Shown one piece after another: positions 31,038 to 49,923 of a DNA stretch of 64,000 bases. Position numbers and translations under genes: made by a program. The first letter of the stretch is position 1; each line of letters starts with the position of its first letter. Source of the DNA: Armatimonadota bacterium (GTDB lineage: Bacteria > Armatimonadota > HRBIN16); NCBI GenBank assembly GCA_026003195.1, contig BPGU01000003.1, positions 472,763 to 536,762 of the forward strand. The letters are read 5' to 3'. Under the pieces are notes generated by a model. The model had not been told where the DNA came from, did no database searches, and saw nothing but the letters and a program-made list of their open reading frames with translations.

Positions 31038-32051
31038 TTACATCGCCTGTAGCAGCTCCAGCATCTCGCGGTCCAGCTTGTGCCCCCGCCAGTCCTCATA
31101 GCGCACGTCCGCGCGTCCGCTATCTACCGGTCCAAAGGAACCGTAGAAGTTCCACATCGCCCAGCCCCAGCCTGCCTCCTTCCAGAGGCTCAGCAGGTCA
31201 CGCAGCCATGCCATCACCACCCGGTGAGGTGTCTGGTTGTGTGCGCCGAACTCGCCAATCATCACGCCGACGCCCTTCTTCTCCAGCTCTTTCCAGGGCT
31301 TGTAGATGCGCTCCCAGATCGTCTGTTTGTCCCACACGGTGTTGCCTTCGCGCCAGGGGTAGGTGGGTTCGGGCCATCTGTCGGAGCCTTGCACCCAGCT
31401 GGCTTTATAGTGGGAGATGACGAAGGGGTCGTAACCGCGCGTGGCACCCGCTACCTTCAGCCCAACCAGCTCCTCGATGGGGTTCCTTGCCCAGTTCAAC
31501 CCATCACAGATGATGAGACGGTCGGGGTCTTGCTCGCGGATGGCTTCCACCACACGCTCCACCACCCTGCGATGTACTTCGGGAGAAATGTTTGCGGGCT
31601 CGTTGAACAGATTGAAACTGACCTGGCTGTTGGGGATGCCCTTATACCTTTTGGCGAAGTGCGCCCAGTGCAGGCAACACACTTTGAGCGCCTCAGCGTC
31701 TGTCCACAGCGGTTTCGGTTCTGGCGGCGAGGCGACTGTGTAACCGGGCGCGCGATGGAAGTTGATGCATACATGCACTCCATGCTTTTGCCCGTAGCGC
31801 ACTGCTGCATCGATCTCTTTCAGCACCTCTTCGCGCAGTTTCGTCCAGTCCGAAGGGTCTGTCCAGCATCGGTAATCCATCGGCAGGCGCACGAAGTTGA
31901 ACCCCAGTTCGGCAAGCCATGCGAAGTCTTGCTCGCTGAAAGGTCGGTTATTCCAGTCGAGATGAAACTTATTGAGCAGGTTAAAGCCACGCCATCGGGG
32001 TAGCTTTTGCGGCGTTGCCGCAGGGAGCTTGCGCTGTGCTACTGGTGCCAT
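31038..32051 (-). CDS. GH5 family glycoside hydrolase (cellulase family A fold), cytoplasmic
   Basis: FNLFNEPAN (acid/base NEP) and MIGEFGAH (nucleophile GEFG). Strong RBS GGAGGAGGG upstream of ATG 32049-32051. Confidence 0.8.
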   Translation of the reverse strand: MAPVAQRKLPAATPQKLPRWRGFNLLNKFHLDWNNRPFSEQDFAWLAELGFNFVRLPMDYRCWTDPSDWTKLREEVLKEIDAAVRYGQKHGVHVCINFHRAPGYTVASPPEPKPLWTDAEALKVCCLHWAHFAKRYKGIPNSQVSFNLFNEPANISPEVHRRVVERVVEAIREQDPDRLIICDGLNWARNPIEELVGLKVAGATRGYDPFVISHYKASWVQGSDRWPEPTYPWREGNTVWDKQTIWERIYKPWKELEKKGVGVMIGEFGAHNQTPHRVVMAWLRDLLSLWKEAGWGWAMWNFYGSFGPVDSGRADVRYEDWRGHKLDREMLELLQAM

Positions 32052-32199
32052 GCTTTCCCTCCTCCTTCGGTGATGCTTACTGTTGGGTTCTTGCTTCTTC
32101 TTGCGGAATCCTCTCCAGAGGAATCTGGACAGAACAGGGTATTGTGGGTAAACTATGAGTGGGATGGGCAGGAGTATTACATCCTGCTTGAAATCTGAG

Positions 32200-32955
32200 A
32201 TGTCTGACACGGCTTTCAACCTGATCGCTCCCTACTACGACGAGCTCATGCACAACGTGCCCTACGACTTCTGGGTGCGCTACGTGCACGAGCTGATAGA
32301 CCGCTACCGCCTGAAGGTGCACAGTATCCTCGACCTTGCCTGTGGCACGGGCAACGTGGCGATGCGCTTGGCGAAAATGGGTTATGAGGTGTGGGGAGTA
32401 GACATCTCCGCGCCGATGGTGGCGGAAGCGCAGCGCAAAGCGCAGGAAGCGGGGCTACATATCCACTACGAGGTGCAAGACGCTGCGCAGCTGCAACTGC
32501 CCCGACAGTTTGACCTCGTGCTCAGCCTGTTCGACAGCCTGAACTATATCCTCTCTCCCGAAAAGCTGCAAGAGGCGTTCCGAAGGGTTTACACTCACCT
32601 GCAACCCGGAGGTGCGTTCCTCTTCGATGTGAATACCGAGTATGCCTTGCGCGAGGGGCTGTTCGACCAGGACAACCTCGGTTCGCGCCGCCGACTGCTT
32701 TATCGCTGGAAGAGCCGATACGACGAGGAGACCAGAATCTGTACGGTGGAGATGGAGTTCTGGCTGCGCAACGAGAGGGGAGAGCTCGCCCAACATTTTG
32801 TGGAGGTGCATCGCCAGCGAGCGTACACCCTGGACGAGTTGAACACCATGTTACGAGAGGCTGGCTTCGATTACGCCCGCGCCTTTCACGCCTATACCCT
32901 GCGTCCGCCCAACGCTACCACCGACCGCGCCTTCTTTGTGGCGACGAAGTGGTAA
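32200..32955 (+). CDS. class I SAM-dependent methyltransferase
   Basis: ILDLACGTGNVAMRLAKMGYEVWGVDIS (motif I) and ...LVLSLFDSLNYIL. Confidence 0.8.
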   Translation: MSDTAFNLIAPYYDELMHNVPYDFWVRYVHELIDRYRLKVHSILDLACGTGNVAMRLAKMGYEVWGVDISAPMVAEAQRKAQEAGLHIHYEVQDAAQLQLPRQFDLVLSLFDSLNYILSPEKLQEAFRRVYTHLQPGGAFLFDVNTEYALREGLFDQDNLGSRRRLLYRWKSRYDEETRICTVEMEFWLRNERGELAQHFVEVHRQRAYTLDELNTMLREAGFDYARAFHAYTLRPPNATTDRAFFVATKW

Positions 32956-35990: not shown

Positions 35991-38135
35991 TCAGTACCAT
36001 TCTAACCGCAGACCACCCAACAGGTGCTCGCCTTCCAGCTTACCCACCGCGCCTTCGTCTGTCAGGCTATACACCACCCAAGGCACTTCACCCTTCTGCC
36101 AGTCTGCCAGAGGCAACAACGGCACGCGGCACGGATAGGGAGCGGTCTGGCGCAGACGCACCACCCCCTGCGTGCGGTCTATCTGCAGCCCGCACAGCGC
36201 GAACAGGTATCCGATGGAGGTGATGCCGCGCGGGTAGAAACAGAGGTTGTTGGTGAAATAGGTATCGATGAACCCTTTGTTCAGCCCGGCAGTGTTCATT
36301 AACTGCTCCATCGCCATATAGCGCGAGGAGTTATCGGGCAGCCCCACCCCCAGATAGGCGGCGATATAGTCGCGCCACAGGTTTTGCGAGAGCCACACGT
36401 TGCTTTTGTCTGCGCTGGTGTGTGTGCAGCCGTATTCGGTGAGCGCGTGTCGGTAGGCGCTGACGATGTCCTGTTTCATGCGCGAGAGGTCTACCGGTGG
36501 CGTATGCCCGCTCATCAGCAGATAGAGCAAACCGTTGGCGGTATAGAGGGAATAGGCATCCCATCCACTCATCTCCCCGTGCAACGGCTCACCGGTCCAG
36601 GGGTCTTTCAAACCCTCGGCGGTGCGCTCCAGACACACCGCGTAGTGGTCGCCCAGCCACGCCTGCGCGTCCAGCGTTTCCCGAATGCGCGTCACGATGC
36701 GCTCACATTGTGTCAGCCATTCGCTATCTCCCAGAGCCTGCGCGATGTGCGCCGCGGCATGACAGGCGGAGAGGGTCTTGACCGCCAGGTACACCTGCTC
36801 GCGGGCGTATTGTACCGCAGCGGAGGCGTCGTCGATAGTGTTTGCCACACCCTCGTTAGGAAAGCCGTTGCCGGTGGTATCGCTGCGCTCGAAGTAGTCC
36901 ACCAGCCGTCGGCACAGGGCGTGGTGTCGGCGTGCCGGCTCCAGGTTGCCCGTCCAGCGCCAGTAAGCGTGCAGCATCAGCAGGTAGTTGGCGTTCTCTT
37001 CCACCTGCATCGGGTGCGGGTACGCCTGCTTACCGACCCTGGCGTGCGTGCCCATGTCATGCGCGAGGTAGCTGCCTACCTCGTCCCGCATCTCGAAGCG
37101 TGCCCACTCGTCCAGCAGCCTCTCCAGCAGGGGCAGCCAGAAGGCAAAGTACACCAGCCCGTTGTTGTACTCTACGTCGACGGTGCTGTGGAAGTAGCAG
37201 GAACCTTCCCACACGCTGAACCACTGCTCGCCCGCTTCGTCGACCGTCCACCAGCTGTTCAGCAGGAAGTTCTGGAAGGAGAAGCGGATGAGGTCCAGCT
37301 GCGATTTGCTCAGGCTGGCTTCGTCCAGCAGGCTTTCCACGAACTCCGTTTTGCGCAGCAGGGTATCTGCCTCTTCTCTGGCGAAACGGGCGACCTCGTC
37401 CACGTTCGCGAACTGGCGCGTGTACAGGAAGCGCATCGGCTTGCCGAACACCTCCAGCACGGGCGCGTCAATATGGGTGCACCATGCAAAGCGCAGGCTG
37501 GTTTCCTCACTCTGGGTGAAGTCGAACGGCAGTGCCAGCCCATTGTTCTCTACCAGAGTACCTTCGGTCAAGGGCACGATGCGCTCATGCGCTACAGGTG
37601 GGTTCTCCCCGACGATGAAGTCCCGGATGGTGAACCGCTCGTCGGCGACATGCGACACAGCGTATTCCAGTGCCAGCGCATCCTGCAAGGGAGTCATCTG
37701 TGTGCCCTCGCGCTGCAGGCGCACCACCAGTCTGCCCTTCTGCACGGGGTTCTGGCAACTTGTCCAGAAGAGGCGGGGCTGGGGTTGCACCTTCACCGTG
37801 AAGTAGAACAGGGGCGCTGTGGAGACCACGGCATCGTGCGGGTAGAAGGGGGCGACGATCTCCACCTCCAGCCGGACGCCGTATTGCACCGAATGTGCCC
37901 GGTAGCGCACCCCGCACAGGCGCAGTTCCTGCTCTACCGCGTCGAACATCTGTGCCTCACTGGTGAAGGGCAGGGCGACCACCTCGCCCTTCTCCGTTTC
38001 TACCCCGATAGTCAGATCCATCGGCTGTTCTACCCACCGCCCGAGTGCGGAGTGGAGCACATGTTTCGCGTAGGGGTCCAGCACCAGCGTCAAGCGCGAC
38101 CCCAATCGGCTCACAGAAGTAGCATGAAGGTTCAT
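35991..38135 (-). CDS. GH52-like glycoside hydrolase (beta-xylosidase family)
   Basis: 714 aa. (alpha/alpha)6-type segments and a C-terminal FYPRGITSIGYLF resembling the GH52 YYPRGVTSILW region. RBS GAGGTGA. Confidence 0.65.
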   Translation of the reverse strand: MNLHATSVSRLGSRLTLVLDPYAKHVLHSALGRWVEQPMDLTIGVETEKGEVVALPFTSEAQMFDAVEQELRLCGVRYRAHSVQYGVRLEVEIVAPFYPHDAVVSTAPLFYFTVKVQPQPRLFWTSCQNPVQKGRLVVRLQREGTQMTPLQDALALEYAVSHVADERFTIRDFIVGENPPVAHERIVPLTEGTLVENNGLALPFDFTQSEETSLRFAWCTHIDAPVLEVFGKPMRFLYTRQFANVDEVARFAREEADTLLRKTEFVESLLDEASLSKSQLDLIRFSFQNFLLNSWWTVDEAGEQWFSVWEGSCYFHSTVDVEYNNGLVYFAFWLPLLERLLDEWARFEMRDEVGSYLAHDMGTHARVGKQAYPHPMQVEENANYLLMLHAYWRWTGNLEPARRHHALCRRLVDYFERSDTTGNGFPNEGVANTIDDASAAVQYAREQVYLAVKTLSACHAAAHIAQALGDSEWLTQCERIVTRIRETLDAQAWLGDHYAVCLERTAEGLKDPWTGEPLHGEMSGWDAYSLYTANGLLYLLMSGHTPPVDLSRMKQDIVSAYRHALTEYGCTHTSADKSNVWLSQNLWRDYIAAYLGVGLPDNSSRYMAMEQLMNTAGLNKGFIDTYFTNNLCFYPRGITSIGYLFALCGLQIDRTQGVVRLRQTAPYPCRVPLLPLADWQKGEVPWVVYSLTDEGAVGKLEGEHLLGGLRLEWY

Positions 38136-38158
38136 ACGCTTTCACCTCAGAAATCGAT

Positions 38159-39241
38159 CTATGTTTGCAGGATCTGTTGCATTGCTTCATTCCACAGCAT
38201 CTTGATAGTGGCAGAAGATTCGCTCATCAGATCAAGAAGCTCCTTAAGAAAAGCATCTCTTCCATGCACTCCAGCAGTTGCCAGGTTGTCGTAAATCCAG
38301 TCACTTAAACGTACGAAGCCAACTTCATGCCCCTGTGCAAAGAGCGAATAAGCCCTCCGAAAAGCGTCTTCTGTCGGAGGGTCGTTGGCAAAAGCAAAAA
38401 GGTAATCGGTAACACTGAGTGCAGAGAGTTTGCTGTGGAAGACTGTTTCCACTCGTGCACCGTCTATCATCCGTTCCGTCACCTCTATGGCGATTCGTAT
38501 GTGTTCACCTTCTCTGACTGTGATGTCTCCTGCTGCGCCGCTCGCGCTATCTGCGACATGAATTCCTTGCCACTCTATTTTCCAATTCAGCCGATATGTG
38601 TTGGAAACGGCTTTGAGCAGTGCTACGCACAGAAGTAGAGGTATCAGACCACCACTTCTTCGGGACAGTAGATTGTCGACCAGTTGACGAATCTGTTCCA
38701 AACTGAGTCGAGGTAAGCGAACCAAGGAGATCGCGGAACTTTCACGCAACCCTACGAAGCGATATAGCAGATATCGTAAAAGATTTAGAGCCGTCTGTTC
38801 ATCAGCTTGCATTAGTTCTTTCAGATATGCCAAGAACGCTTGGTAACCCTTCTTGTCCTTTAACCCTTTTGCGGTGTCGGTGGTGAAGCGGATGCTCCGC
38901 CGGAATACAGCGAGGTATGGTCCCTTGGAACAGGGTATACGCTTCGACACGAGGAATGGATTGACGACCTTCTCATCCAAACTTCGTCCCGAGAAGGCGT
39001 TCTCTCCTTGGTCAGTGTAGGGCTGTGTGAGGTCAATCTGAGCATCTACGACTCGTGCAATGGCACACCCGAGCAGGGCTTCTCGGTATGACTGCACCCC
39101 GGTTTCAAACAGAGTATCTGCGGCTTCCTGCGCTCTTGCCGAAACAGGAGGGGGGGCAGTGTTGAGATAATCTTGCTCTGCACGTTCAAACTGCTCGCGA
39201 AGTATCTGTTCAGCCTTCTTAAAATCTATACTTCTCCCCAT
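38159..39241 (-). CDS. putative type II restriction endonuclease (family unrecognised) partnered with the upstream Dam-like MTase
   Basis: 360-aa ORF starting 6 nt after the MTase stop, in a region of clearly lower GC (about 48-50%). Possible PD-(D/E)xK-like region GDITVREGEHIRIAIEVTER. No similarity that I recognise to DpnII or EcoRV. Confidence 0.5.
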   Translation of the reverse strand: MGRSIDFKKAEQILREQFERAEQDYLNTAPPPVSARAQEAADTLFETGVQSYREALLGCAIARVVDAQIDLTQPYTDQGENAFSGRSLDEKVVNPFLVSKRIPCSKGPYLAVFRRSIRFTTDTAKGLKDKKGYQAFLAYLKELMQADEQTALNLLRYLLYRFVGLRESSAISLVRLPRLSLEQIRQLVDNLLSRRSGGLIPLLLCVALLKAVSNTYRLNWKIEWQGIHVADSASGAAGDITVREGEHIRIAIEVTERMIDGARVETVFHSKLSALSVTDYLFAFANDPPTEDAFRRAYSLFAQGHEVGFVRLSDWIYDNLATAGVHGRDAFLKELLDLMSESSATIKMLWNEAMQQILQT

Positions 39242-39247
39242 GTGAAC

Positions 39248-40171
39248 TTATATCCCTTGCTCAGGTATACTATAGTTCACCCAGAGTGCCTCTTGGCGCG
39301 GTTGCTTTACAGAATGGCAAGTCTTCACTGGGGCAAGAATGCACTTCCAGTCACCGTATAGTTCATCCATCAGATCACAGCGATATCCAGAGATAGCAAC
39401 TTTGCCCTGACACGCATGCAGTACTTTCGCAAGTTCACGGTGCGAGGCTTCATCCATCTCAAACCCATAGGCTTTTCTGTCTTTTCGCGCTTCTGGAGGG
39501 TAGGGTGGGTCGCAGTAGAAGAGGGTATTCGGGGAGTCATACAGTTTGATGACCTCAATCGCCGGGCGATTTTCTATCTGCACCCGCAGCAGGCGTTCCG
39601 CAATCTCAGGGAGCATTTCGATGCCTCCTAGCCAGCGCGATACAACCCCTGACATGCCTCTACGTGAGGTATGGATGCAGTTCGCCCATCTGCCTAGAGT
39701 AGCAGTCTGCGCCAGCCCTGTGCGTGCTTGCCTGGCTCGCACATAGAACCGGCGAGCACGTTCGAGGTCGGAGATGGTCTGGTCAGGCGGTGAGATTGCC
39801 AACTCAAACTCCTCACGCGAAAAGGGGGTTAAAGCGATAGCTTTCACGAGCTCTTCTGTTTGCTCTCTCAGCACCCGAAAGAAATTAACCACCTCTCCAT
39901 CCAAATCGTTGTAGGTCTCTACGGGCGATGGGGCACGGTTCAACAGTACTGCTGCTGAGCCTCCGAAAGGTTCACAGTAATGGTATGTTCGCGGTAGCAG
40001 AGGCAGCAACCAGTCCAGATGGGAATATTTGCCTCCGTACCAGCCGAAGGCGATCAGCTTGCGCGCGCGAGTCCGCCCTTGGCGCGTTACCACAGGAGCA
40101 GGTTTACGCCCACTCTGTGGAGGCGCAGTCAAAAAATAGTCCATGTTCTCCATGATATCGAACAGATCCAT
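39248..40171 (-). CDS. Dam-like (alpha-class, D12 family) N6-adenine DNA methyltransferase
   Basis: EPFGGSAAVLL (motif I, FxGxG) and LFYCDPPYPPE (motif IV, DPPY), in the D12-class order. RBS GAGAGGTGGA. Confidence 0.85.
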   Translation of the reverse strand: MDLFDIMENMDYFLTAPPQSGRKPAPVVTRQGRTRARKLIAFGWYGGKYSHLDWLLPLLPRTYHYCEPFGGSAAVLLNRAPSPVETYNDLDGEVVNFFRVLREQTEELVKAIALTPFSREEFELAISPPDQTISDLERARRFYVRARQARTGLAQTATLGRWANCIHTSRRGMSGVVSRWLGGIEMLPEIAERLLRVQIENRPAIEVIKLYDSPNTLFYCDPPYPPEARKDRKAYGFEMDEASHRELAKVLHACQGKVAISGYRCDLMDELYGDWKCILAPVKTCHSVKQPRQEALWVNYSIPEQGI

Positions 40172-40238
40172 CTGTCCACCTCTCTTTTCGGAACTGTTTC
40201 GATTCTACTACTGATGTCTATGCCCTGTAAACTAACGC

Positions 40239-42332
40239 CTATACTCTCATGCACAGCCTCACCTGAGTCGGGTCGCCGCCCAACTCCTCGAAAAGCACGA
40301 GCACGTTCTGCTCGCGCAGCCAGTCGGCGGGCAGGTGATAATACCGCTGGGTGGGCAAGCCTTCGCCTTCTGGGTAGACCGCTTGCAGCAACCACTCCTC
40401 AGGCTTACCGGTGCCTGCAGCCAGCCAGTAGCGCCCGATGCACCGTCCGTTCAACCACGCCATGCCCTTGGTCATACCGCTCAGGTCCAGGGCGAGGGGA
40501 GCGTTGGTCTTCGGGCGTTCAAAGGTGGTCTTCCACCAGCAGAGGGGCTTGCCTCGTGCTACCTCGATACTGCTCTCCCATCGCACGTAGGCGCTGCCCT
40601 CGGCATACACCCGACAGTGTTCACCTCTCAGTCCCGCTTCGATACGCCAGGGCGCTTCCAGCGGCTCGCTACGCCATAGCAACCTGCCCCAAAAGCCTTT
40701 GCGCTCGTCTGCCATGTTGTGTTCGCCAAGCATCCAGTCGCCCTTCACTAGCCCCAGCGCACAGCAGAGTATCGCCAGCGTGTGCTCGCCTGCGCTCATC
40801 TCCAGTTCGAACCGCTGGGTAAAACTCTCCGGGTCGTCTAAGTTGCGGTTCTCGGGCAGGGGTGACTGTGTGGTGGCAACGAACTGCCCGTCGAGAAACA
40901 GATGCACCACATCCGCTACTCCCTGCAGCTCCAGCACGCCTTTGCCCTCTTGATGGGGCAACACCATGATTTTGGCAACATACCAGCAATAGTCGGTCTC
41001 GTCGTGGGTGAACTGCAGTTGCTCCACCGGCTTGTCGGAGAGCACTGGCGGGTGTAACGGGATCGGCTCGCCATTGGGGAGCGGCTCTACCCACCACTGG
41101 AAGGGGGCAAGCTTCGGGTCGCAGACCTCCATGCGTCGCTCCAGCACGTATTGGGGCTCCACCTGTGCGGTGTTCATGAGCGGTTGCCCATCGCCGATGA
41201 GGGTGACCGACTGCGGCGGCAGCTGGTAACGACGCCCCGCGCAGGAAACCTCTATGGTCTTTTGGGTATCGTCGTTGCACAGGAAGAGCAGTGAGCGTCC
41301 CTCGTGCTGATAGGTGTACATCAGGGCGCCCTCCGGCAGCGTTTCCGGTTGAGCGCGTTCGCTTTCGACCAGCACCGGGGCGTACTCCTGCAGGATGCGG
41401 TGCAGATGTGCCAGATGGTACATCTTGGTAGTGGGCAAGCCGAACTCGTCCAGCGGGGCGTCGTAGTCATAGCTGGTGGTTTGCAGGAAGGAGCCATCGC
41501 GGTCGAAGTTGGTACCGCCGTGCCACATGTAGTAGTTCATCCCCGTTCCGCCCGCCGCGAAGAAACGTGCCGCCGCATACGCAACGTTTTCAGGGGTGCG
41601 GCGGTTGTGCGGATAGCCCCACAGGTCGTACCAGCCGGGCCAGTGCTCTGTCCACAGCGCGGGTTTGTCGGGGTGACAGGTGAAGTGTTCGTCCAGCAGA
41701 GGATGGGCATAGAAGGCGTTAATGGTCTCGATAGTGCCCGGCGCGCTGCCTTTGCACATCACCCAGGGCACCCCTACCTGCAAGGATTCCGCCATCTCGG
41801 CGATGCGCTTCAGATAGTGTTCACCCGCCTCACCATAGCGCCACGCGATATTGCCGTACTCGTTCTCAATCTGCGCCAGGATGATGGGACCACCGTTCGG
41901 GGCGAAGTAGGGGCGCACATAGTCGCAGAGCAGGCGCACCCATCTCTCCATCTCCCGCAGGAACGGTTCGTTATCGGTGCGCATCTGGATGCCGGGCACA
42001 TCGCGCAGCCAGGCGGGCAAGCCGCCGTAGTTGGTTTCGGCGCAGATGTAGGGACCGATGCGCAGGATAACGTACAGCCCCAGCTCGTGCGCGATGTCCA
42101 GAAAGCGGCGGATATCCAGCCTGTCGGAAAAGTCGTAAACGCCGCGACGACGTTCGTGCAGGTTCCAGAAGACGTAGGTTTCGATAGCGTTCAGTCCCGC
42201 CTCTTTGCTGTGTTCCATCAGCGAACGCCACATACCCGGCGTGCTGCGCGGATAGTGTATGGCTCCGCTAAGGAGCAGGGTGCGTTTACCGTCGATGGTG
42301 ATAGCACGACGATCATAACTCACGTTCGGCAT
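40239..42332 (-). CDS. GH35 beta-galactosidase
   Basis: ...GGPIILAQIENEYG (acid/base) and the N-terminal TIM-barrel pattern LNAIETYVFWNLHE...GLYVILRIGPYICAE. No signal peptide. Confidence 0.85.
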   Translation of the reverse strand: MPNVSYDRRAITIDGKRTLLLSGAIHYPRSTPGMWRSLMEHSKEAGLNAIETYVFWNLHERRRGVYDFSDRLDIRRFLDIAHELGLYVILRIGPYICAETNYGGLPAWLRDVPGIQMRTDNEPFLREMERWVRLLCDYVRPYFAPNGGPIILAQIENEYGNIAWRYGEAGEHYLKRIAEMAESLQVGVPWVMCKGSAPGTIETINAFYAHPLLDEHFTCHPDKPALWTEHWPGWYDLWGYPHNRRTPENVAYAAARFFAAGGTGMNYYMWHGGTNFDRDGSFLQTTSYDYDAPLDEFGLPTTKMYHLAHLHRILQEYAPVLVESERAQPETLPEGALMYTYQHEGRSLLFLCNDDTQKTIEVSCAGRRYQLPPQSVTLIGDGQPLMNTAQVEPQYVLERRMEVCDPKLAPFQWWVEPLPNGEPIPLHPPVLSDKPVEQLQFTHDETDYCWYVAKIMVLPHQEGKGVLELQGVADVVHLFLDGQFVATTQSPLPENRNLDDPESFTQRFELEMSAGEHTLAILCCALGLVKGDWMLGEHNMADERKGFWGRLLWRSEPLEAPWRIEAGLRGEHCRVYAEGSAYVRWESSIEVARGKPLCWWKTTFERPKTNAPLALDLSGMTKGMAWLNGRCIGRYWLAAGTGKPEEWLLQAVYPEGEGLPTQRYYHLPADWLREQNVLVLFEELGGDPTQVRLCMRV

Positions 42333-42641
42333 GGTATTACCTCTGTTTGTAAGGGCTCTTTGCTCTGTCTCTATGCGTGTTCGTTATTCATTCTTGTCGA
42401 TACTATACTTAGACGCACTACCTACGTGTCACCTGCAAGAAGCGACGTAGCCGTCGCGTAAGAGAGTATGCTAAAGCAATCTCTGAGGTGTTACATGACT
42501 CTGTCTTGCAAAAAAGAGAGGAAATGGCTGTTAGCCGGTCGATATAGGACATTTTTTGTTTCTTTACGAGAAAGGGAACGACACATTGTAAACAGAAGAT
42601 TAAGAAGAGATAGTCGGCTTCGGGTATTAGGGTGGAGAGAT

Positions 42642-45600
42642 ATGGAAAAGCCAGTTGAAGATGTCAGAGTTCGCAGCCTAGATGTAACGCAGATGCAGTG
42701 GGGCTTCGGATTCGTGGTGGGAGACAGGAATGCTTTTTTCCACATAAAGGTCCTGCGAAAGAGTTTTCCCGAGATCGCAAACGCGATCGACCCGCGAACG
42801 AGGAAGGGCGTTCCGCCGGCGTTTGTGCCTGGCTTGATAGCACGTGTTACACAGACTTCTAGGGGAAGCGAAGTCGTAGAATTTCTCCTTATAAATGAGT
42901 CGGAAACCTGCCTTGTTGGATACGAGATTACGCAAGAAGGTTATCGGCTCTGCAATCTTCCCGCATTGCATCCTTCATCTAGCTACAGAGTAGACTACTC
43001 ATCGTGGCAGCCTAAAGGTAACTATACAACAGGCTTAGTGGTTTGTGAGGTCAGGCCTGTAACCCTTGTAATGGAATATGTTCGCCGTAGCCCTGATCCC
43101 GCATGGGGAATCTTCCCTATTGCCGAGTACAGTCGTCAGGATATTTCGACGTTTGCTAACCATGTGGAGTGGCAGTCTCCCCAAAACACCGAATTCCTGC
43201 TGAAGATTTTTAGTGAAAGAGTACTACGTGCTCCTGTGGTCGCTCTGGATATAGAGTCAGACGGCGAGCGTATTCACCAAATAGGTATTGCGGGAGCAAA
43301 TGGAGCGACACTCCTTTTCGGAAACGGTAACAAAGGTTTAGACGCTGCTCTACAAGAGCTTCAACAGATCATTAGAGGCAAACTGGTCGTTGGGCACAAT
43401 ATCGTTGATTGGGATATTCCTATACTGAAGCGTCACGGAGTATCTTTCGATGACTCGGAGACCTGGGACACCCTACACATGAGTTTGTGGTCGGCACCTT
43501 TGCAATGGACGCATGCTTTGGGAGGGACACATCAAGCAGACCAGGACGCGCAACAAGCTCTGCGACTTTTCGAAAAGCAGCTATTGGGATGGATAAGCGG
43601 CGCGTATACTATACCCTCTAATCTTCTTCCGTCAACCGTTCGAGAATTGGATGCCGAGATCGCTGTCTTGAAACCCGTATTTTCCTTATGTCCAGTTTCG
43701 CAGAACGAAATAAGAGATGTCAGTGCAGACGACAATTATGCTCGCCAGATTGCAGATCAAATAAGGAGTGTCGTAAAGGATCTCGCGTCTACCACAATAG
43801 TAGTGGTCCCTGAACCCTGCCTGCTAGCTGCACGGTTTCTCGAGGGATCGGCAGTGATAATACCTGAGTCATCGTTTGGCTGGGATGCAAGCGGGGATGC
43901 AGGTATCGCCTTGTGCCCCGAACTAGTACCCTACGAGGCTAACAACGAGAAGTTCTTCTCCATAGCAACCAGGTATATCGAGGCAGCGAGGGCAAGCAAG
44001 ACATCTCCAGACCGCTTCCTGATCCCACCGTATCTAAAGCAGGTTCTTTCTGGAAGCCCAGAGTCGTGGGAAAGAACGAAGAAACGATGTATAAGCTGTA
44101 GCAGTCAGCAATGTGCTTTTTATCCTTCGCGCTTACAGTTTACTACTTACTCCGCCCTTCCTGAACCCTCCTTTTGGGAGTATGTGGAGTCAAAGGATAT
44201 CAAACACATAGTCATTTATTACTATCCTTTAATCCCACCTTACGTGACTATGCGTGTGAAGTCAGAACAACTCGACAAGCTATACCTGCATAGAAGGGGA
44301 TTGCTGATAGCAGCGCGGGAACGGACGGTATCAGTAGACAGAGATATGCTCAGCGTGTTGGGTTTCAGGGAAGATCAACAACAGATACTTCAGAATGCGT
44401 GTTTCCTCCATTACACCGCTTACGATGGCTACTATCTGGTTGCCGACGTCAGGCAACTACGGCTACCGGAAATTCAGAACCTTTCCATTGTCAAACACAT
44501 CTTTCACATCTTTAAGACGGAAGAAGCAATTGGAGAAAAGATTACCATTGCACAACCGAAATACCCGTCTCCAATGAGTGAAGAAGCACCATCTCCGGTC
44601 GTCGCTATAACCACTCGATACCGCGCCGATTTTTGGAGTACTCAAACATTGTTGGTCAAAGAACTGCATCGAAGTTTGAAGGCTCCATTGGTGGTTTTCG
44701 TCCCCCGCGCAGAGGTCACGGAAGTTGAAAACCTGTTTGACGTCGCAGGCATTCCTTTGCTGCCTAGGTACCTTAGCCTACAGAGGCAGACGGAGCTGCT
44801 AACTGTTGGAAAGGTGCTATTACACACCTACCGGAACGCCTATAACCTCTGTTCACAGGCGGTACAGCTACTCACCTCTTATACGCTACCAAAGGGGATA
44901 GTTTTTGTTCTTCCTGAAGTACCTCTTTTCCCTATTGCCGAGCAGAGCTCGTTCACTAACGGGGAGTTCAAGAGTGTGGCGGGAGTAACAACGGAAGCTA
45001 GTATCGAAAATAGCATTCCCGGCGACGAAGAGGAAGAAGAGCAAGATGAAATCCCTGCAGTGCCGCGAAGCCTGCTCGGCGAACACTTTCTCAAAGAGGC
45101 TGCTGCCTTTCTCGTGACGTTGAGCAAGCTAGCGAGTTGCTCCCGTGAGGCAAAGATCGTGGTGACAGATATAGCGGTATCAGCTATAGGATACAGAAGG
45201 CTGCCAGATTTTAGATCTCAAAGATTACCAGTCTACGATGACCAAGAGCGATGTCGAGAGGTGTACGAGAAGGCAGTAGTGTTGTTTGCACAATCTCCTT
45301 TGAAGCCTGCGTTTCCTGAAGATGCCGAGACGCGCTTACAAAGATGGCGAGACCTTCTTCTACCTCCAACAGCGGACTATACTTCAGAACAACGACGTTA
45401 TCTCCTGCGCGTGATGGCGCAAGAAGATGGCGTAGCAGTTCGCATTCCAACTGGTGGGGGGAAATCCGTTATATTCCAGATACCCGCTCTGGACGAAGGG
45501 ATTAGAAGTGGGTTTTTAAGCGTTGTCATCTCGCCCCTTAGAGCTCTCATAGACGATCAGGTGCGTCACCTATGGGAGAAGGGTTTTGCTAGCTGCGTTG

Positions 45601-45965
45601 ACGGGATTACCAGTGACTTAACACAATTTGAGATTGAAAGCATCTTTCGACGCGTAGCTGGTGGAGAGATACTGCTCCTGTACGTCACCCCAGAACGTGT
45701 GTATACGAGACGTTTTCAGAAGTATATAAGCAGGCGCATCGAGCTCGATGGACGTATTGCTTACTGGATTCTAGATGAAGCCCATTGCGTTTCTCAGTGG
45801 GGGCTGGACTTCCGTCCTGCCTACCTGCGCGCTGCCCGCTGGATACAACAACGTCGCCAGGTGAACTTGACCAAACAAGAAGGGGCTACCCCGGTTGTTT
45901 TTCTGTCCGCAACACTAACGGCAAAGACTATCAGTGATCTTAAACGAATATTTGAAACCTTCTAG
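42642..45965 (+). CDS. multidomain protein: cold-shock-like OB fold, DEDDh 3-prime-5-prime exonuclease, about 500 aa unknown, and RecQ-type helicase lobe 1 (motifs I-III); WRN-like architecture
   Basis: CSD-like QWGFGFVVGDRNAFFHI. Exo motifs: I ALDIESDG, II VGHNIVDWDIPIL, III H-QADQDAQQAL. RecQ lobe 1: PTGGGKSVIFQIPAL...VISPLRALIDDQV...LLYVTPER...ILDEAHCVSQWGLDFRPAY...FLSATLT. The ORF stops directly after motif III. ATG 42642 preferred over upstream starts. Low-GC region. Confidence 0.8.
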   Translation: MEKPVEDVRVRSLDVTQMQWGFGFVVGDRNAFFHIKVLRKSFPEIANAIDPRTRKGVPPAFVPGLIARVTQTSRGSEVVEFLLINESETCLVGYEITQEGYRLCNLPALHPSSSYRVDYSSWQPKGNYTTGLVVCEVRPVTLVMEYVRRSPDPAWGIFPIAEYSRQDISTFANHVEWQSPQNTEFLLKIFSERVLRAPVVALDIESDGERIHQIGIAGANGATLLFGNGNKGLDAALQELQQIIRGKLVVGHNIVDWDIPILKRHGVSFDDSETWDTLHMSLWSAPLQWTHALGGTHQADQDAQQALRLFEKQLLGWISGAYTIPSNLLPSTVRELDAEIAVLKPVFSLCPVSQNEIRDVSADDNYARQIADQIRSVVKDLASTTIVVVPEPCLLAARFLEGSAVIIPESSFGWDASGDAGIALCPELVPYEANNEKFFSIATRYIEAARASKTSPDRFLIPPYLKQVLSGSPESWERTKKRCISCSSQQCAFYPSRLQFTTYSALPEPSFWEYVESKDIKHIVIYYYPLIPPYVTMRVKSEQLDKLYLHRRGLLIAARERTVSVDRDMLSVLGFREDQQQILQNACFLHYTAYDGYYLVADVRQLRLPEIQNLSIVKHIFHIFKTEEAIGEKITIAQPKYPSPMSEEAPSPVVAITTRYRADFWSTQTLLVKELHRSLKAPLVVFVPRAEVTEVENLFDVAGIPLLPRYLSLQRQTELLTVGKVLLHTYRNAYNLCSQAVQLLTSYTLPKGIVFVLPEVPLFPIAEQSSFTNGEFKSVAGVTTEASIENSIPGDEEEEEQDEIPAVPRSLLGEHFLKEAAAFLVTLSKLASCSREAKIVVTDIAVSAIGYRRLPDFRSQRLPVYDDQERCREVYEKAVVLFAQSPLKPAFPEDAETRLQRWRDLLLPPTADYTSEQRRYLLRVMAQEDGVAVRIPTGGGKSVIFQIPALDEGIRSGFLSVVISPLRALIDDQVRHLWEKGFASCVDGITSDLTQFEIESIFRRVAGGEILLLYVTPERVYTRRFQKYISRRIELDGRIAYWILDEAHCVSQWGLDFRPAYLRAARWIQQRRQVNLTKQEGATPVVFLSATLTAKTISDLKRIFETF

Positions 45966-45990
45966 CCAGAGACGGAGTGTGGAGGATAAG

Positions 45991-48900
45991 ATGTTTAACG
46001 AGACGACACCTTCTGCAGAAGTGATTCAAGATTATCTCTCTTTGCGTTTCGAGCAGGTACCTCGTGCAGAACGCACAGAGTGGGTAGCAGATTATCTAGT
46101 TGATGCTATCTTTAATAGCGAGTTTAACCCGCAGCTCAGCAGGGCAATCGTTTTTGTCACCGCTCGGAATCGAGCAGAAGAAGTAGCCCAAGGGCTCCAA
46201 CAACTCTTTGAAAAGCGTAACCTGAGGCTTGCAGTAGAGGCTTTCCACGCGGAACTATCAGGAGAAGTGCGCAAGGAGCGCTATGAACAGTTTCGCGAGG
46301 GTAGCCTGTGTGTCCTTGTTGCTACGAAGGCTTTCGGATTGGGAATGGATATCCCCAACATCCACTTGGTTGTCCATTATGATCCGCCGACCAGCCTCGA
46401 GGACTACATTCAGGAGATAGGTAGAGCTGGACGAGACCCCAAAGCACGCCTCCAGGCGGGTTTCGACGGTTCGCGTCGTGTACCCTGTATACTGCTGTGG
46501 GACGCAGACGACTTAGGACGCTCTCGTGACCGCCTGCGTCGTCAGCTAGTCTCTTGGCACGACGTTACGCGAGTTTTCGAAGCTATCAAGGAATATGCGA
46601 AAGAGGTCGGGCATATATTCGCGACGGCGGGGCAGCAAAGTGACAAGCCTCTGTATGTACCTACTAACCTACTCGCCGCCGAAAGGAACGGCGCGCTGAA
46701 ACTAGACATGGGAATGTACTGGCTGGAAAGAGCGGAAAGGATTAAAGTCTGCTACATGGTTCCAGGGCTATTCTACATCAAGAGGCTAGTAGATAAACCC
46801 AAAGATGTAGACAAAAGAATACTTGCTCTGATGGATCTTATCGCCAGAAGGGAAAGAGGCGACGAGGCTGTGCCGTTGCTGATATACGAACTTCTGTGTG
46901 AGCTGGAGATCGAGGATATCCCTGACCTGGTTGACTTTCTCTCGCAGGTAGAAAAGAAGGGATACATCGAGGTTGTTGACAAGATTCATGTTAGGACTAC
47001 AGGAAAATGGCTTAGCGAGGTCGAGGGTGCACTCCAAGGCAAGTTAGATATACCGCGCCTTCGCACGGCGATGAACATCTTGCAAGGAATCGTGCAAGAA
47101 GCGGCTGCCTGCCAGGATGGCTTGCTTAGGCTAAGTCGAGACGAGCTCGAGAGTCTTAAGAAGGAACTCGCCATCAAGTCCTTAGGAGAGAACAACAAAG
47201 GATGGGCGGAAGATGTAGCAAAACGTGCTTGCATCCTGCGTATGCTCACACTGGCACCAGGTGTCAGCGTAAGGACCTCTGTGGAAGAGGGGAAACTTTA
47301 CTACAGTATAGTGGTTCTAGGAAAAAAGGGTGGCGCCGAGTCATCTCAGTTTACGCAATGGCTATACGAGACATCAGCAAGTTTTCTTCGAGAAGTGTAT
47401 GTTGCCAACAGTGGAACGTACTCTCTTACGAAGATCCTCGCTTCGTTGGGTCTCATCAACCAAGGAAAGCTTTGGGGGTATAACTCCTTAGAACTGCTGG
47501 CACTTGTCATCCAGTGGCTGAGAGGACTAGGTTACGTTCACGCGGACTCCAACCTTATACCTTTCGCTACGGAGATCCTGCTGAAAGACACTCGTGACCT
47601 GGATCCATCCGATTTGCGCAGCCTTGACTATCAGGTGCAGCAAAAGTTGATAGAAAGTAACCGCTTTAGGGAGTTGAGTATGTTCGTGCTGTTCACAATA
47701 GCCAAGATTGGTGAGGAGCAAACTGTAAGGGATCTGGTGAGAAGCTATTTTGAAGTAGAGGACTCGGCGACGCTTATGGATCTTCTGTTGACGAGACTAC
47801 CCGACACAAGCGACCTTGTTAGAGCACTCCGTGCGGACGCCCTGCGCGAGGAGATGGAAAGGCTTAATGAGGAGCAGAGGCAGGTCGTCACTGCTCCGGT
47901 AAACTGTTCTCTCATTGTGTATGCGGGACCAGGCTCTGGAAAGACCCATACCCTTCTACTACGCCTCGCATATCTTGTGCATGAAGAACAGATTACTCCT
48001 TCACAAATACTGGTGCTTGCCTACAATAACGCTGTGGTAACAGAGATTCGTCATCGGCTGCGTGAATTGTTTAGGAGGTTAGGATATGCCTCATATATCA
48101 ACGGCTTGTCTGTGTATACTTTCCACGGTTTTGTGCGCGCTCTGGTAGGGAGGCAGATGAATTCGCTAAGTGAACGAGAACGGGAGGAACTCTTAGATAA
48201 TTGTTGCTATCTACAGGTTACTCAATCTGCTGACTACAACAAACTCATTCGGCGAAGAAGGGGAACTGTTAATCCCGATGGTACAAGAAGGCTACCTGTG
48301 TCTATGTATATCGCGTACTTTAACTACCTGTGCGAGCAGGGACGTGCACCGTTGGAGTTGTCAAACTATCGCTACATTTTGGTAGACGAGTTTCAAGACA
48401 TCACCGAAGAGCGTTATCGGATGCTGAGACATATCTCCAACGCTAGTAACAAGTATCTGACTGTCATTGGCGATGACGACCAGAGTATCTACGGGTATGA
48501 GAGGGAGCGAGAGATAGATGCAGGGCTGCTTGATTCACAAAAAGGCCGGGCTAAGGTCGTTGGAGCTAGTTGGTGGTTCGCACGCTTCAAAAAGGAATAT
48601 CAAGCAAACCACATCGTCCTGAAATCGAACTACCGAAGCCTTCCCCTAATACTGGTAACTGCTCTGGACTGGATCAGCCGAAACAGTTCACACGTTAAAC
48701 AGTACAAACAAGATATGCGTGCAGAGCGTACAGTATCGGAGCAATGGGACATTCGCGACAGGTACTGTGAGATTATTGAAGACACCCAGGTGGACTGGAA
48801 GGATATCGTTCGTTCTCTGTTATCTGAGAAAAACACTCAGGGAACGAAATATAGAGAGATCGCTTTGCTGTTCCGATACCATGCACAGGCTTACAGAGCC

Positions 48901-49923
48901 TACCAGATTCTGCGTGAAGATGATCTATTGGGAGGGATGCTTCGCCTGCATGATAGGTCGCCGCACTTTACCAATATCCGGGAAGTACACCTTGTGCTAC
49001 AGCGATGGGAACAGCGTGCAAGTGAGCCAATTGATGAGATAAAACCGTTCGAGGACATACAAGAGGTCGCTCAGGAGTGCCGTCTCAGTATGGATGCGGA
49101 CAACCTGTCTTTGTTGAACATGCTGGCAAAAGAATTTTTTCTCACCGCTCCGCCTCGTTCCACATACTCAGACCTCATCCAGGCAGTACAGGACTTCGAA
49201 CACAGCGGCAACATCAGCAAGCTGATGCAGGCGTACTGGGACAAAGTTAGCGGTCAAGAACGAGAGACGCGAATCATTCTGACTACTTTTCATCAGGCAA
49301 AAGGCTTAGAGTTCGATGCTGTAGTGGTAGCTCCTGTCGAGAAACTAATGCGTAACAATGGCTCCCAAGACGAGGACAGCCCGGAAGAGGATACAAACAA
49401 TCCAGAAGAGCTGAGGCGGATTGTTTACGTTGGTTTAACCCGAGCTCGAGATAGATTGATATGGATTCGTGGCGACATCGAAAAACAGCTCCTTGCAGGA
49501 AAGTTAGCGGCGCAACCAATGGAAGAACCGCTTGTCACCTTCAAGTGGAGCGACCCTTCCACCATCTTTCTCTCCTACTGTGCAAGCGACCAACTGGCAG
49601 CAAAGTCTGGTTCGACAGCTGTTAGCTTACAGGACTACATACGACAAGAAGTACATAGGTATGACCCTCTCAAGCTTGTCCCCCTCAACGATCAGCTTTA
49701 CCTCCAACACGGGGACACCAATTTTGTTGCAAGAGTAGCAGGAAACTGGCGCGACAGAATCTTGAATCTGAGCAGATATAAATCCCACCTGTACGTTTCT
49801 GATGTTTTCTGGAAAGAGTACGATGAAAACGAAGACATAGAAAGGGATTACGTATCCGAATCCATCAAAAACCGTGGCGGCTATTACTACGTCTCCGTCT
49901 TTGGCTACGTAGAGCCCGCGTAA
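45991..49923 (+). CDS. multidomain protein: RecQ helicase lobe 2 (motifs IV-VI), linker, UvrD/Rep-like SF1 helicase, and an unknown C-terminal domain
   Basis: GGAGG then ATG 45991. RecQ lobe 2: [16 protein letters not shown]...[42 protein letters not shown]. UvrD motifs: [12 protein letters not shown] (I), TFHGF (Ia), VDEFQDIT (II), IGDDDQSIY (III), NYRS (IV), [12 protein letters not shown] (V), VYVGLTRAR (VI). The ORF track start at 45934 is a GTG in the overlap. Confidence 0.8.
   Translation: [1310 protein letters not shown]

What the first reader, a model, noticed from the sequence alone, without database searches (positions are those of the whole stretch)
38159..40171. Compact low-GC type II R-M cassette (Dam-like MTase then unrecognised endonuclease) inserted inside the glycoside-hydrolase cluster
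The MTase shows the D12-class motifs (FGGSAAVLL, DPPY). A 360-aa ORF starts 6 nt after its stop, so the pair is tightly coupled in M-then-R order. A sampled 60-mer gives about 50% GC, against about 65% for the flanking GH52 and GH35 genes. The endonuclease resembles no REase family I recognise (it is not DpnII-like), so its specificity and fold are open.
Basis: partly seen in the sequence, partly recalled or inferred. Interest (0 to 1): 0.6.

Follow-up and report, generated by a model that had tools for sequence, protein, structure and literature searches.

The report
SacI-family restriction-modification cassette, ordinary
This is a normal two-gene bacterial restriction-modification (anti-foreign-DNA) system whose cutting enzyme belongs to the known SacI family. 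It sits in a sugar-degradation operon of an Armatimonadota bacterium, at a site that is occupied in some relatives and empty in others.

Summary
On the minus strand a 307-aa D12-class N6-adenine methyltransferase (39248-40171) is followed 6 nt later by a 360-aa ORF (38159-39241). The cassette has 51% GC, against 61-62% for the flanking GH35 and GH52-like genes.

In 78 of 80 genomes from many phyla, the same methyltransferase lies immediately upstream on the same strand.

Close relatives show empty sites, with GH35 and GH52 only 16 nt apart, and occupied sites carrying diverged alleles. One related contig carries a 99-100% identical cassette although its GH genes are only 88-93% identical.

Two things are mildly unusual:
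- This clade replaces the canonical catalytic lysine (EVKDR becomes EVTER).
- It pairs with an adenine methylase, whereas the GAGCTC systems I could check use a cytosine methylase.

The specificity, possibly GAGCTC, is inferred and not shown. Verdict: a new member of a known kind, of low interest.

The parts
40202..40231 (-). Sigma-70-like promoter (TTTACA, 18-nt spacer, TAGAAT) in the 67-nt spacer between the GH35 stop and the methyltransferase start. It lies inside the inserted segment.
   Evidence: It is the only promoter-like site on either strand of 37900-40500 and matches 10 of 12 positions; shuffled versions of the region average 1.9 such sites, so the count alone is not above chance. 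Other alleles also carry a -10-like element upstream of the methyltransferase. It is a consensus match only; function is inferred.
39248..40171 (-). Alpha-class (D12) N6-adenine DNA methyltransferase, 307 aa. Motif X-like WYGGK is at residues 44-48, motif I FGGSAAV at 69-75 (39947-39967) and motif IV DPPY at 221-224 (39500-39511). A GAGGTGG Shine-Dalgarno sequence lies 4 nt upstream.
   Evidence: Pfam PF02086, E = 2.8e-21. PADLOC MTase_II PDLC03244, E = 2.3e-57. DpnM (2dpm), E = 1e-10. It is 100% identical to an NCBI protein named 'MAG: DNA methyltransferase [Armatimonadota bacterium]'.
38159..39241 (-). SacI-family type II restriction endonuclease, 360 aa. It has an N-terminal helical domain (about residues 1-216) and a C-terminal PD-(D/E)xK core. 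The core holds D239 (38525-38527), E253 and T255 (IEVTER, 38471-38488), and the clade-invariant R263 and K271.
38136..38158 (-). Right junction: 23 nt between the endonuclease stop and the GH52-like start, containing the GH52 Shine-Dalgarno sequence (GAGGTGA). No terminator-like site lies on this strand.
40239..42332 (-). GH35 beta-galactosidase gene, upstream flank (context only). In empty-site relatives it abuts the GH52-like gene.
   Evidence: Pfam PF01301, E = 1.7e-104. Empty sites L086 and L091 have a 16-nt spacer.
35991..38135 (-). GH52-like (alpha/alpha)6 glycoside hydrolase gene, downstream flank (context only). Every cassette of this lineage sits immediately 5' of this gene.
   Evidence: Pfam PF03512 and PF16335. 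Linkage is seen in the window, L001, L003, L005, L088, L089, L093 and L094.

Best explanation
This is a functional two-gene type IIP restriction-modification operon. Its own promoter drives an alpha-class N6-adenine methyltransferase. This enzyme methylates an adenine in a short, probably palindromic, site on host DNA.

A SacI-family PD-(D/E)xK endonuclease follows 6 nt downstream and is probably translationally coupled. By analogy with EcoT38I it is probably a homodimer, and it cuts unmethylated copies of that site in incoming DNA.

The endonuclease belongs to a large, divergent branch of the SacI family. In this branch the canonical catalytic lysine of the D...ExK motif is replaced by threonine (D239...E253-V-T255). 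R263 and K271 are invariant in this branch and are candidates to supply the missing positive charge.

The site is most likely GAGCTC or a close relative, protected as G(m6A)GCTC.

The cassette has no mobility genes and no terminal repeats. It occupies the spacer just 5' of the GH52-like gene in one Armatimonadota lineage. There it is a presence/absence polymorphism with diverged alleles, and it still moves between relatives, most plausibly by homologous recombination through the flanking genes.

Shown: gene identities, family membership, fold, conserved pairing, empty and occupied sites, purifying selection, and recent exchange.
Inferred: enzymatic activity, specificity, the roles of R263 and K271, promoter use, read-through into GH52, and the recombination mechanism.
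For: Family and fold:
- Pfam RE_SacI score is above the cut-off, with full-length coverage.
- NCBI names close homologues 'restriction endonuclease, SacI family'.
- The AlphaFold model is confident, pLDDT 90.4.
- The clade profile hits the EcoT38I sequence at E = 4.6e-6 and aligns GDITV...IEVTER to LDIDV...IEVKDK.

Pairing:
- 78 of 80 genome loci from many phyla have a homologue of the window methyltransferase (61-91% identity) immediately upstream on the same strand.

Selection on the endonuclease:
- dN/dS is about 0.12 for the window against L003.
- 37 columns are invariant across 51 sequences.
- The pattern D231-D239-E253-T255-E256-R257-R263-K271 occurs in 153 of 167 full-length members.

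Insertion:
- Empty sites are L083, L084, L085, L086, L091 and L087.
- Occupied sites are the window, L001, L003, L093, L094, L088, L089 and L005.

Recent exchange:
- Against L001, cassette dS is 0.012-0.023 while GH-gene dS is 0.28-0.35, and the cassette is 99-100% identical in nucleotides.

Expression signals:
- A promoter-like site lies upstream of the methyltransferase, and no terminator lies before GH52.

Specificity lead:
- From my memory, SacI cuts GAGCT^C and EcoT38I cuts GRGCY^C.
- Of the sites covered by GRGCYC, only GAGCTC has an adenine on both strands, which an adenine methylase needs in order to protect the site.
Against: - No biochemical or methylome data exist for any member of this clade that I could find.
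- GAGCTC is not avoided in the window: 16 observed against 17.3 expected.
- GAGCTC is only unremarkably low in 807 kb of carrier loci, at O/E 0.76 and rank 22 of 64 palindromes.
- GAGCTC occurs inside the methyltransferase gene itself, at 39848.
- The window protein scores only 36 bits on the Pfam model, whereas the canonical-lysine subfamily scores 93-136 bits. It is about 23% identical to that subfamily. Restriction enzymes at that distance often differ in specificity.
- The canonical catalytic lysine is absent.
- Published GAGCTC and GRGCYC systems that I could check use cytosine methylation (PMC11954522, PMC11649196).
- I had no model coordinates, so the proximity of R263 and K271 to the active site is untested.
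Confidence: 0.88

Rival explanations
1. It is the same functional restriction-modification system, but it recognises a different adenine-containing site and not GAGCTC. This divergent Thr-type branch would then have its own specificity.
For: The window protein is only about 23% identical to the canonical-lysine SacI subfamily and scores 36 bits against their 93-136 bits on Pfam. There is no GAGCTC avoidance in the window or in the pooled carrier loci. The partner is an m6A methylase, whereas the GAGCTC system I could check (M.Sgr13350I) uses an m5C methylase.
Against: From memory, SacI (GAGCTC) and the much more distant EcoT38I (GRGCYC) keep overlapping specificities, which suggests a conserved recognition mode across the family. 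Lack of site avoidance is common and is not diagnostic. The pooled test had no control set.
Confidence: 0.45
2. The endonuclease is catalytically dead or repurposed because it lost the canonical lysine. The pair would then be effectively an orphan methyltransferase plus a DNA-binding relic.
For: T255 replaces the lysine of the ExK motif. GAGCTC is not avoided. One locus, L059, has the endonuclease with no methyltransferase within 6 kb.
Against: The Thr variant is invariant, together with D239, E253, E256, R257, R263 and K271, in 153 of 167 full-length members. dN/dS is about 0.12. The tight methyltransferase-endonuclease pairing is kept in 78 of 80 genomes across phyla, as expected if the endonuclease is toxic without its methylase. 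From my knowledge, other PD-(D/E)xK restriction enzymes work with a non-lysine third residue: BamHI has E and BglII has Q.
Confidence: 0.06
3. The cassette entered this exact site several times independently, or just once recently in this genome, from an outside pool of about 50% GC. On this view it is not an old polymorphism inherited and exchanged within the lineage.
For: Cassette GC3 stays at 0.48-0.63 in every lineage, against 0.74-0.81 for host genes, so it has not drifted towards host composition. The cassette is about 50% GC in hosts of many phyla. The cassette is near-identical between the window and L001 despite 10% flank divergence. Cassette dS is at least as high as flank dS between lineages.
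Against: All GH52-linked endonucleases form one clade in the NJ tree, with a Chthonomonadia (Armatimonadota) sequence as sister. Their pairwise divergence ranks in the same order as GH52 divergence. No integrase, transposase or terminal repeats are present that could target one site repeatedly. The cassette keeps its position 5' of GH52 even where the upstream gene differs.
Confidence: 0.25

Closest known systems
SacI restriction-modification system (Streptomyces achromogenes; Pfam PF09566 prototype, GAGCT^C)
   Same: The endonuclease passes the Pfam RE_SacI model over its full length. The family is classified as PD-(D/E)xK in PMC2441816 and PMC3424549. The size (about 360 aa) and the separate methyltransferase and endonuclease genes also match.
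   Different: The window protein scores only 36 bits, against 93-136 bits for the canonical subfamily. The ExK lysine is replaced by Thr. The partner here is a D12 N6-adenine methylase. M.SacI is a C5-cytosine methylase according to my memory of Xu et al. 1998, and the GAGCTC methylase M.Sgr13350I is m5C according to PMC11954522. The specificity here is untested.
EcoT38I restriction endonuclease (PDB 7E8R, 7EDB; GRGCY^C)
   Different: Identity is about 15%. EcoT38I has the canonical IEVKDK motif. The TM-score is only 0.44, so the domain orientation differs. From my memory of Kita et al. 2003 (paper not held), the EcoT38I genes are head-to-head with a C-protein regulator, the methylase modifies the inner cytosine, and the system sits in a P2 prophage. 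None of that applies here.
Dam / DpnM (M.DpnIIA) family of alpha-class D12 adenine methyltransferases
   Same: It hits Pfam PF02086. The motif order is X, then I, then the target-recognition domain, then IV (DPPY). The best solved relative is DpnM 2dpm, E = 1e-10.
   Different: It falls below the NCBIfam dam cut-off (69.1 against 114.85 bits) and the PRK10904 cut-off, so it is not a Dam orthologue and there is no reason to expect GATC. Its partner endonuclease is unrelated to DpnII or MboI.
Same cassette on Agrobacterium tumefaciens plasmid pAtCFBP6626a (annotated 'DNA adenine methylase' plus 'restriction endonuclease, SacI family')
   Same: The same two genes appear in the same order. The endonuclease is 47% identical to the window's and the methyltransferase 70% identical.
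   Different: That copy is on a conjugative plasmid and is flanked by transposase and integrase genes. The window copy is chromosomal, with no mobility genes or repeats.

Membership tests
SacI restriction endonuclease family (Pfam PF09566) | Score above the Pfam gathering threshold, with near full-length model coverage | tested here: met
   36.2 bits against a cut-off of 19.3; protein residues 4-282 cover model positions 4-272 of 276. Close homologues are named 'restriction endonuclease, SacI family' by NCBI.
SacI restriction endonuclease family (Pfam PF09566) | PD-(D/E)xK fold shared with a solved relative | tested here: met
SacI restriction endonuclease family (Pfam PF09566) | Canonical D...E-x-K catalytic motif, as in EcoT38I and the high-scoring SacI subfamily | tested here: not met
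   D239 and E253 are present, but the lysine position is T255 (IEVTER against IEVKDK or EVKDR). The Thr form occurs in 153 of 167 full-length members. This marks a variant branch and does not exclude homology.
SacI restriction endonuclease family (Pfam PF09566) | Recognition of GAGCTC with cleavage leaving a 3' four-base overhang | not testable with these tools
   Site-avoidance tests were uninformative. No methylome or biochemical data were found.
Type II (IIP) restriction-modification system | Separate, adjacent methyltransferase and endonuclease genes whose pairing is conserved across genomes | tested here: met
   The gap is 6 nt and both genes are on the same strand. 78 of 80 genome loci keep the methyltransferase immediately upstream of the endonuclease.
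Type II (IIP) restriction-modification system | Sequence-specific methylation that protects against cleavage by the cognate endonuclease | not testable with these tools
   This requires a methylome or an in-vitro assay.
D12-class (alpha) N6-adenine DNA methyltransferases (Pfam PF02086) | Pfam score above threshold, with motif I (FxGxG) N-terminal to motif IV (DPPY) | tested here: met
   76.9 bits against a cut-off of 22. FGGSAAV is at residues 69-75 and DPPY at 221-224.
Dam orthologues (NCBIfam TIGR00571 / PRK10904; GATC) | Score above the curated NCBIfam cut-off | tested here: not met
   TIGR00571 gives 69.1 bits against 114.85. PRK10904 gives 35.5 bits against 441.
Transposon, integron-cassette or integrative-element-borne restriction-modification unit | Terminal inverted or direct repeats, target-site duplication, or an adjacent integrase or transposase | tested here: not met
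   No border repeats occur in 37900-40500. The only ORFs are the two restriction-modification genes, between two GH genes. The empty-site spacers hold no cassette remnant.

The most novel reading that the evidence does not exclude
The Thr-type branch, with 153 of 167 full-length family members sampled here carrying D...E-x-T plus invariant R263 and K271, would be a distinct and biochemically uncharacterised type IIP subfamily. It would have a rewired PD-(D/E)xK active site in which the positive charge is supplied from the following helix. It would also have a specificity different from SacI, protected by m6A and not m5C. In Armatimonadota it would persist as a long-lived allelic polymorphism embedded in a sugar-utilisation operon, whose downstream gene may depend on the cassette's promoter.
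Probability: 0.35. Interest if true: 0.4.

Novelty: new member of a known kind. Interest (0 to 1): 0.2.

Why it matters
As a restriction-modification system it is routine: the family is already in Pfam, and NCBI annotates close homologues by name.

Modest value lies in three points:
- A very widespread SacI-family branch (165 relatives among 185,579 species representatives) appears to lack any characterised member. It has a non-canonical catalytic motif and an adenine methylase partner, so one cloning and methylome experiment would assign a specificity to hundreds of annotated genes.
- The EcoT38I structure gives a template for that whole branch.
- The Armatimonadota locus is a clean natural example of a restriction-modification cassette without mobility genes that is kept as a presence/absence and allelic polymorphism, with recent exchange between genomes that differ by about 10%.

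Tried and rejected
- Restriction-site avoidance as a read-out of specificity. GAGCTC is 16 observed against 17.3 expected in the window. Pooled over 80 carrier loci (807 kb) its O/E is 0.76, rank 22 of 64. The most avoided sites (CAGCTG, GTCGAC, CTCGAG, GGGCCC) are, from general knowledge, commonly avoided palindromes, and I had no matched control. The test was uninformative.
- Literature searches for an m6A GAGCTC motif or for a characterised member of this clade found only m5C GAGCTC or GRGCYC systems.
- The Kita et al. 2003 paper on EcoT38I is not held, so its details are cited from memory only.
- A direct sequence search of the PDB with the single protein gave only noise. The clade profile was needed to reach EcoT38I.
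- NCBIfam and PADLOC have no model that recognises the endonuclease.
- I searched for terminal repeats and for cassette remnants in the empty-site spacers and found none.
- I considered that the longer spacers in L083 and L084 are deletion scars. One search found no similarity to any cassette allele, although L083 shares about 10 nt immediately upstream of GH52 with the L003 junction.
- I checked whether L001 is the same genome as the window. It is not, because its GH genes are only 88-93% identical.
Full report
**Observation**

The minus strand of the window carries four consecutive genes:
- GH35 beta-galactosidase, 40239-42332
- a 307-aa ORF, 39248-40171
- a 360-aa ORF, 38159-39241
- a GH52-like hydrolase, 35991-38135

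The two middle ORFs are separated by 6 nt.

Composition:
- GC is 0.512 for 38136-40238, against 0.612 for GH35 and 0.616 for the GH52-like gene.
- GC3 is 0.48-0.56 in the cassette and 0.77-0.80 in the flanks.

**The methyltransferase**

- It matches Pfam PF02086 (D12 class) at 76.9 bits.
- It matches a PADLOC type II methyltransferase model at E = 2.3e-57.
- Its best solved relative is DpnM, 2dpm, at E = 1e-10.
- The motif order is that of the alpha class.
- It falls below the NCBIfam cut-offs for Dam itself, at 69.1 bits against 114.85. 'Dam-like' therefore holds for the class, not for orthology or GATC specificity.
- It is 100% identical to an NCBI protein from an Armatimonadota MAG on a 1.59-Mb contig. 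This identifies the host phylum.

**The endonuclease**

The 360-aa protein is not an orphan.
- It passes Pfam RE_SacI (PF09566) at 36.2 bits against a cut-off of 19.3, covering model positions 4-272 of 276.
- It has 589 homologues in the word-indexed search, many named 'restriction endonuclease, SacI family'.
- An exhaustive profile search found 885 cluster representatives at E <= 1e-3.
- PF09566 was already assigned to the PD-(D/E)xK superfamily by sequence analysis in PMC2441816 and PMC3424549.

The structure prediction agrees.
- An AlphaFold2 model built on 51 sequences has mean pLDDT 90.4. It shows a helical N-terminal domain (about residues 1-216) and an alpha/beta C-terminal core.
- Foldseek gives the EcoT38I-DNA complex 7edb at E = 6.6e-14 over the full length. 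The TM-score is only 0.44, which indicates a different domain orientation.
- The clade profile also finds the EcoT38I sequence at E = 4.6e-6.

So the fold is settled, and a solved homologue exists.

**A non-canonical active site**

- The profile alignment places GDITV...IEVTER of the window protein (D239, E253, T255) on LDIDV...IEVKDK of EcoT38I. The canonical lysine is therefore a threonine here.
- An alignment with more distant family members shows two subfamilies:
  - One has EVKDR. It scores 93-136 bits on the Pfam SacI model, so it is nearer the prototype.
  - The other is the window's branch, with EVTER, which scores 36-47 bits.
- Among 167 full-length members, 153 carry D231-D239-E253-T255-E256-R257-R263-K271. 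The eight Lys-type representatives have Asp, Glu, Gln or Pro at position 263 and a variable residue at 271.
- The Lys-to-Thr change thus co-occurs with a fixed Arg263 and a fixed Lys271 on the helix that follows the catalytic strand. I infer that one of them supplies the missing charge. I could not measure distances, because model coordinates are not exposed.
- The gene is under purifying selection, with dN/dS about 0.12 against L003.

**Conserved pairing**

- A scan of one genome per species found 165 relatives. Of the 80 loci fetched, 78 carry a homologue of the window methyltransferase (61-91% identity) directly upstream on the same strand, usually 1-40 nt away.
- The exceptions are:
  - L082, which has no upstream sequence;
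  - L059, a solitary endonuclease next to a UvrA-like gene.
  L075 counts among the 78 but has only a partial methyltransferase match.
- The hosts span Chloroflexota, Acidobacteriota, Pseudomonadota, Nitrospirota, Planctomycetota, Armatimonadota and others.
- The methyltransferase is consistently more conserved than the endonuclease.
- A copy on an Agrobacterium tumefaciens conjugative plasmid lies between transposase and integrase genes.
- A distant Lys-type member on a Nostoc plasmid also follows a DNA adenine methylase.

**Specificity**

This is the weakest point.
- From memory, SacI cuts GAGCT^C and EcoT38I cuts GRGCY^C. Even distant members of the family would then recognise overlapping sites.
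- Of the sites covered by GRGCYC, only GAGCTC has an adenine on both strands for an adenine methylase to protect.
- On the other hand:
  - The window protein is only about 23% identical to the Lys-type subfamily.
  - The GAGCTC or GRGCYC systems I could document use cytosine methylation: M.Sgr13350I in PMC11954522 and the 5mC GRGCYC motif in PMC11649196.
  - GAGCTC is not avoided in the window (16 against 17.3 expected).
  - In 807 kb of carrier loci, GAGCTC is not avoided more than most other hexamer palindromes (O/E 0.76, rank 22 of 64).
- I put GAGCTC at roughly even odds.

**Insertion and history**

A metagenome scan with the GH52-like protein recovered close relatives.

| State | Loci | Detail |
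|---|---|---|
| Empty, GH35 context | L086, L091 | GH35 and GH52 16 nt apart (TAAGGAGGGACTTGCGATG) |
| Empty, GH35 context | L084, L085 | 94-nt spacer |
| Empty, GH35 context | L083 | 181-nt spacer |
| Occupied, GH35 context | window, L001, L003, L093, L094 | Cassette between GH35 and GH52 |
| Occupied, different upstream gene | L088, L089, L005 | Cassette still immediately 5' of GH52 |
| Empty, different upstream gene | L087 | Matching empty site for L088 and L089 |

- The inserted segment runs from just after the upstream stop codon to the endonuclease stop codon.
- It brings a promoter-like TTTACA-18-TAGAAT (40231-40202), and no terminator lies before GH52. In this genome GH52 is therefore probably transcribed through the cassette. 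This is an inference.
- No terminal repeats, mobility genes or remnants were found.

Identity to the window copy in the occupied loci:

| Protein | L001 | L003 | L093 | L088 | L089 |
|---|---|---|---|---|---|
| Endonuclease | 99% | 71% | 57% | 55% | 54% |
| Methyltransferase | 100% | 91% | 82.5% | 85.5% | 81% |
| GH52 | 94% | 87% | 85% | 79% | 79% |

- The GH52-linked endonucleases form one clade in an NJ tree, with a Chthonomonadia sequence as sister.
- Their divergence ranks in the same order as GH52 divergence. This favours an old acquisition with losses and/or allele exchange.
- Two observations show continuing lateral flow:
  - Against L001, the cassette is 99-100% identical in nucleotides while the GH genes on both sides are 87-93% identical. 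Cassette dS is 0.012-0.023, against 0.28-0.35 for the GH genes.
  - Cassette GC3 has not drifted towards host values in any lineage.
- One caveat: all of these are metagenome assemblies, so strain-level chimerism cannot be excluded. It would not, however, produce a pattern that follows the cassette borders.

**Verdict**

This is a type IIP restriction-modification cassette of a known family, already annotated as such in public records. The claim of an unrecognisable endonuclease with an open fold is wrong. What remains open is the recognition sequence and how the Thr-type active site works. It is a new member of a known kind, and interest is low.

Noticed in passing
window 42333-49923 (+): A second low-GC (0.49) island lies on the other side of GH35. 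A 1165-aa ORF has about 960 aa without any Pfam hit, followed by a DEAD/DpdF-like helicase N-lobe. It overlaps by 32 nt a 1329-aa ORF that has Helicase_C followed by a UvrD/GajB-like helicase. The RecQ/DpdF-like helicase core thus appears split across two ORFs, as it is in L001. The island is 99-100% identical to L001, while GH35 next to it is 88-95% identical, and it is absent upstream of GH35 in L083-L094. It is possibly a defence island.
   Followed up: partly
window 1-64000: Hexamer palindromes containing GGCC are almost absent: GGGCCC 0, CGGCCG 1, TGGCCA 2, AGGCCT 1. CATATG (0 against 6.2 expected) and ACGCGT (2 against 14.9) are also strongly depleted. This suggests pressure from other restriction systems in this host.
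   Followed up: no
L001 20821-21083; window 31038-32219 (-): The related contig L001 has an XcyI-family restriction endonuclease gene next to the small-molecule-type methyltransferase. At the corresponding place the window has a GH5 cellulase ORF. This is another difference in restriction genes between the two genomes.
   Followed up: partly
L059 5995-7092: In a Planctomycetia MAG, a SacI-family endonuclease has no D12 methyltransferase within 6 kb on either side. It lies next to a UvrA-like gene. It is either a solitary restriction gene or one protected by a methylase encoded elsewhere.
   Followed up: partly
L099 1771-3891 (Staphylococcus epidermidis plasmid p1): A 706-aa protein annotated as DNA cytosine methyltransferase has a C5-methylase domain at residues 1-324. 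Its C-terminal half gives a weak tblastn match to the window endonuclease but no Pfam hit. It is possibly a methylase fused to a SacI-like domain.
   Followed up: partly
L001 about 9020-9045, against window 40202-40231: Relative to the window, L001 carries an 11-nt tandem duplication (CAGTAGTGGAT) inside the spacer of the promoter-like element upstream of the methyltransferase. This would change the -35/-10 spacing.
   Followed up: no
L083 2290-2470; L084 7907-8000: The empty-site spacers in L083 and L084 share a GC-rich element (GAGGC.(G)ACTCC.GCCGAGCCGA) that is absent from the 16-nt spacers of L086 and L091 and shows no similarity to the cassette. Its nature is unknown.
   Followed up: partly
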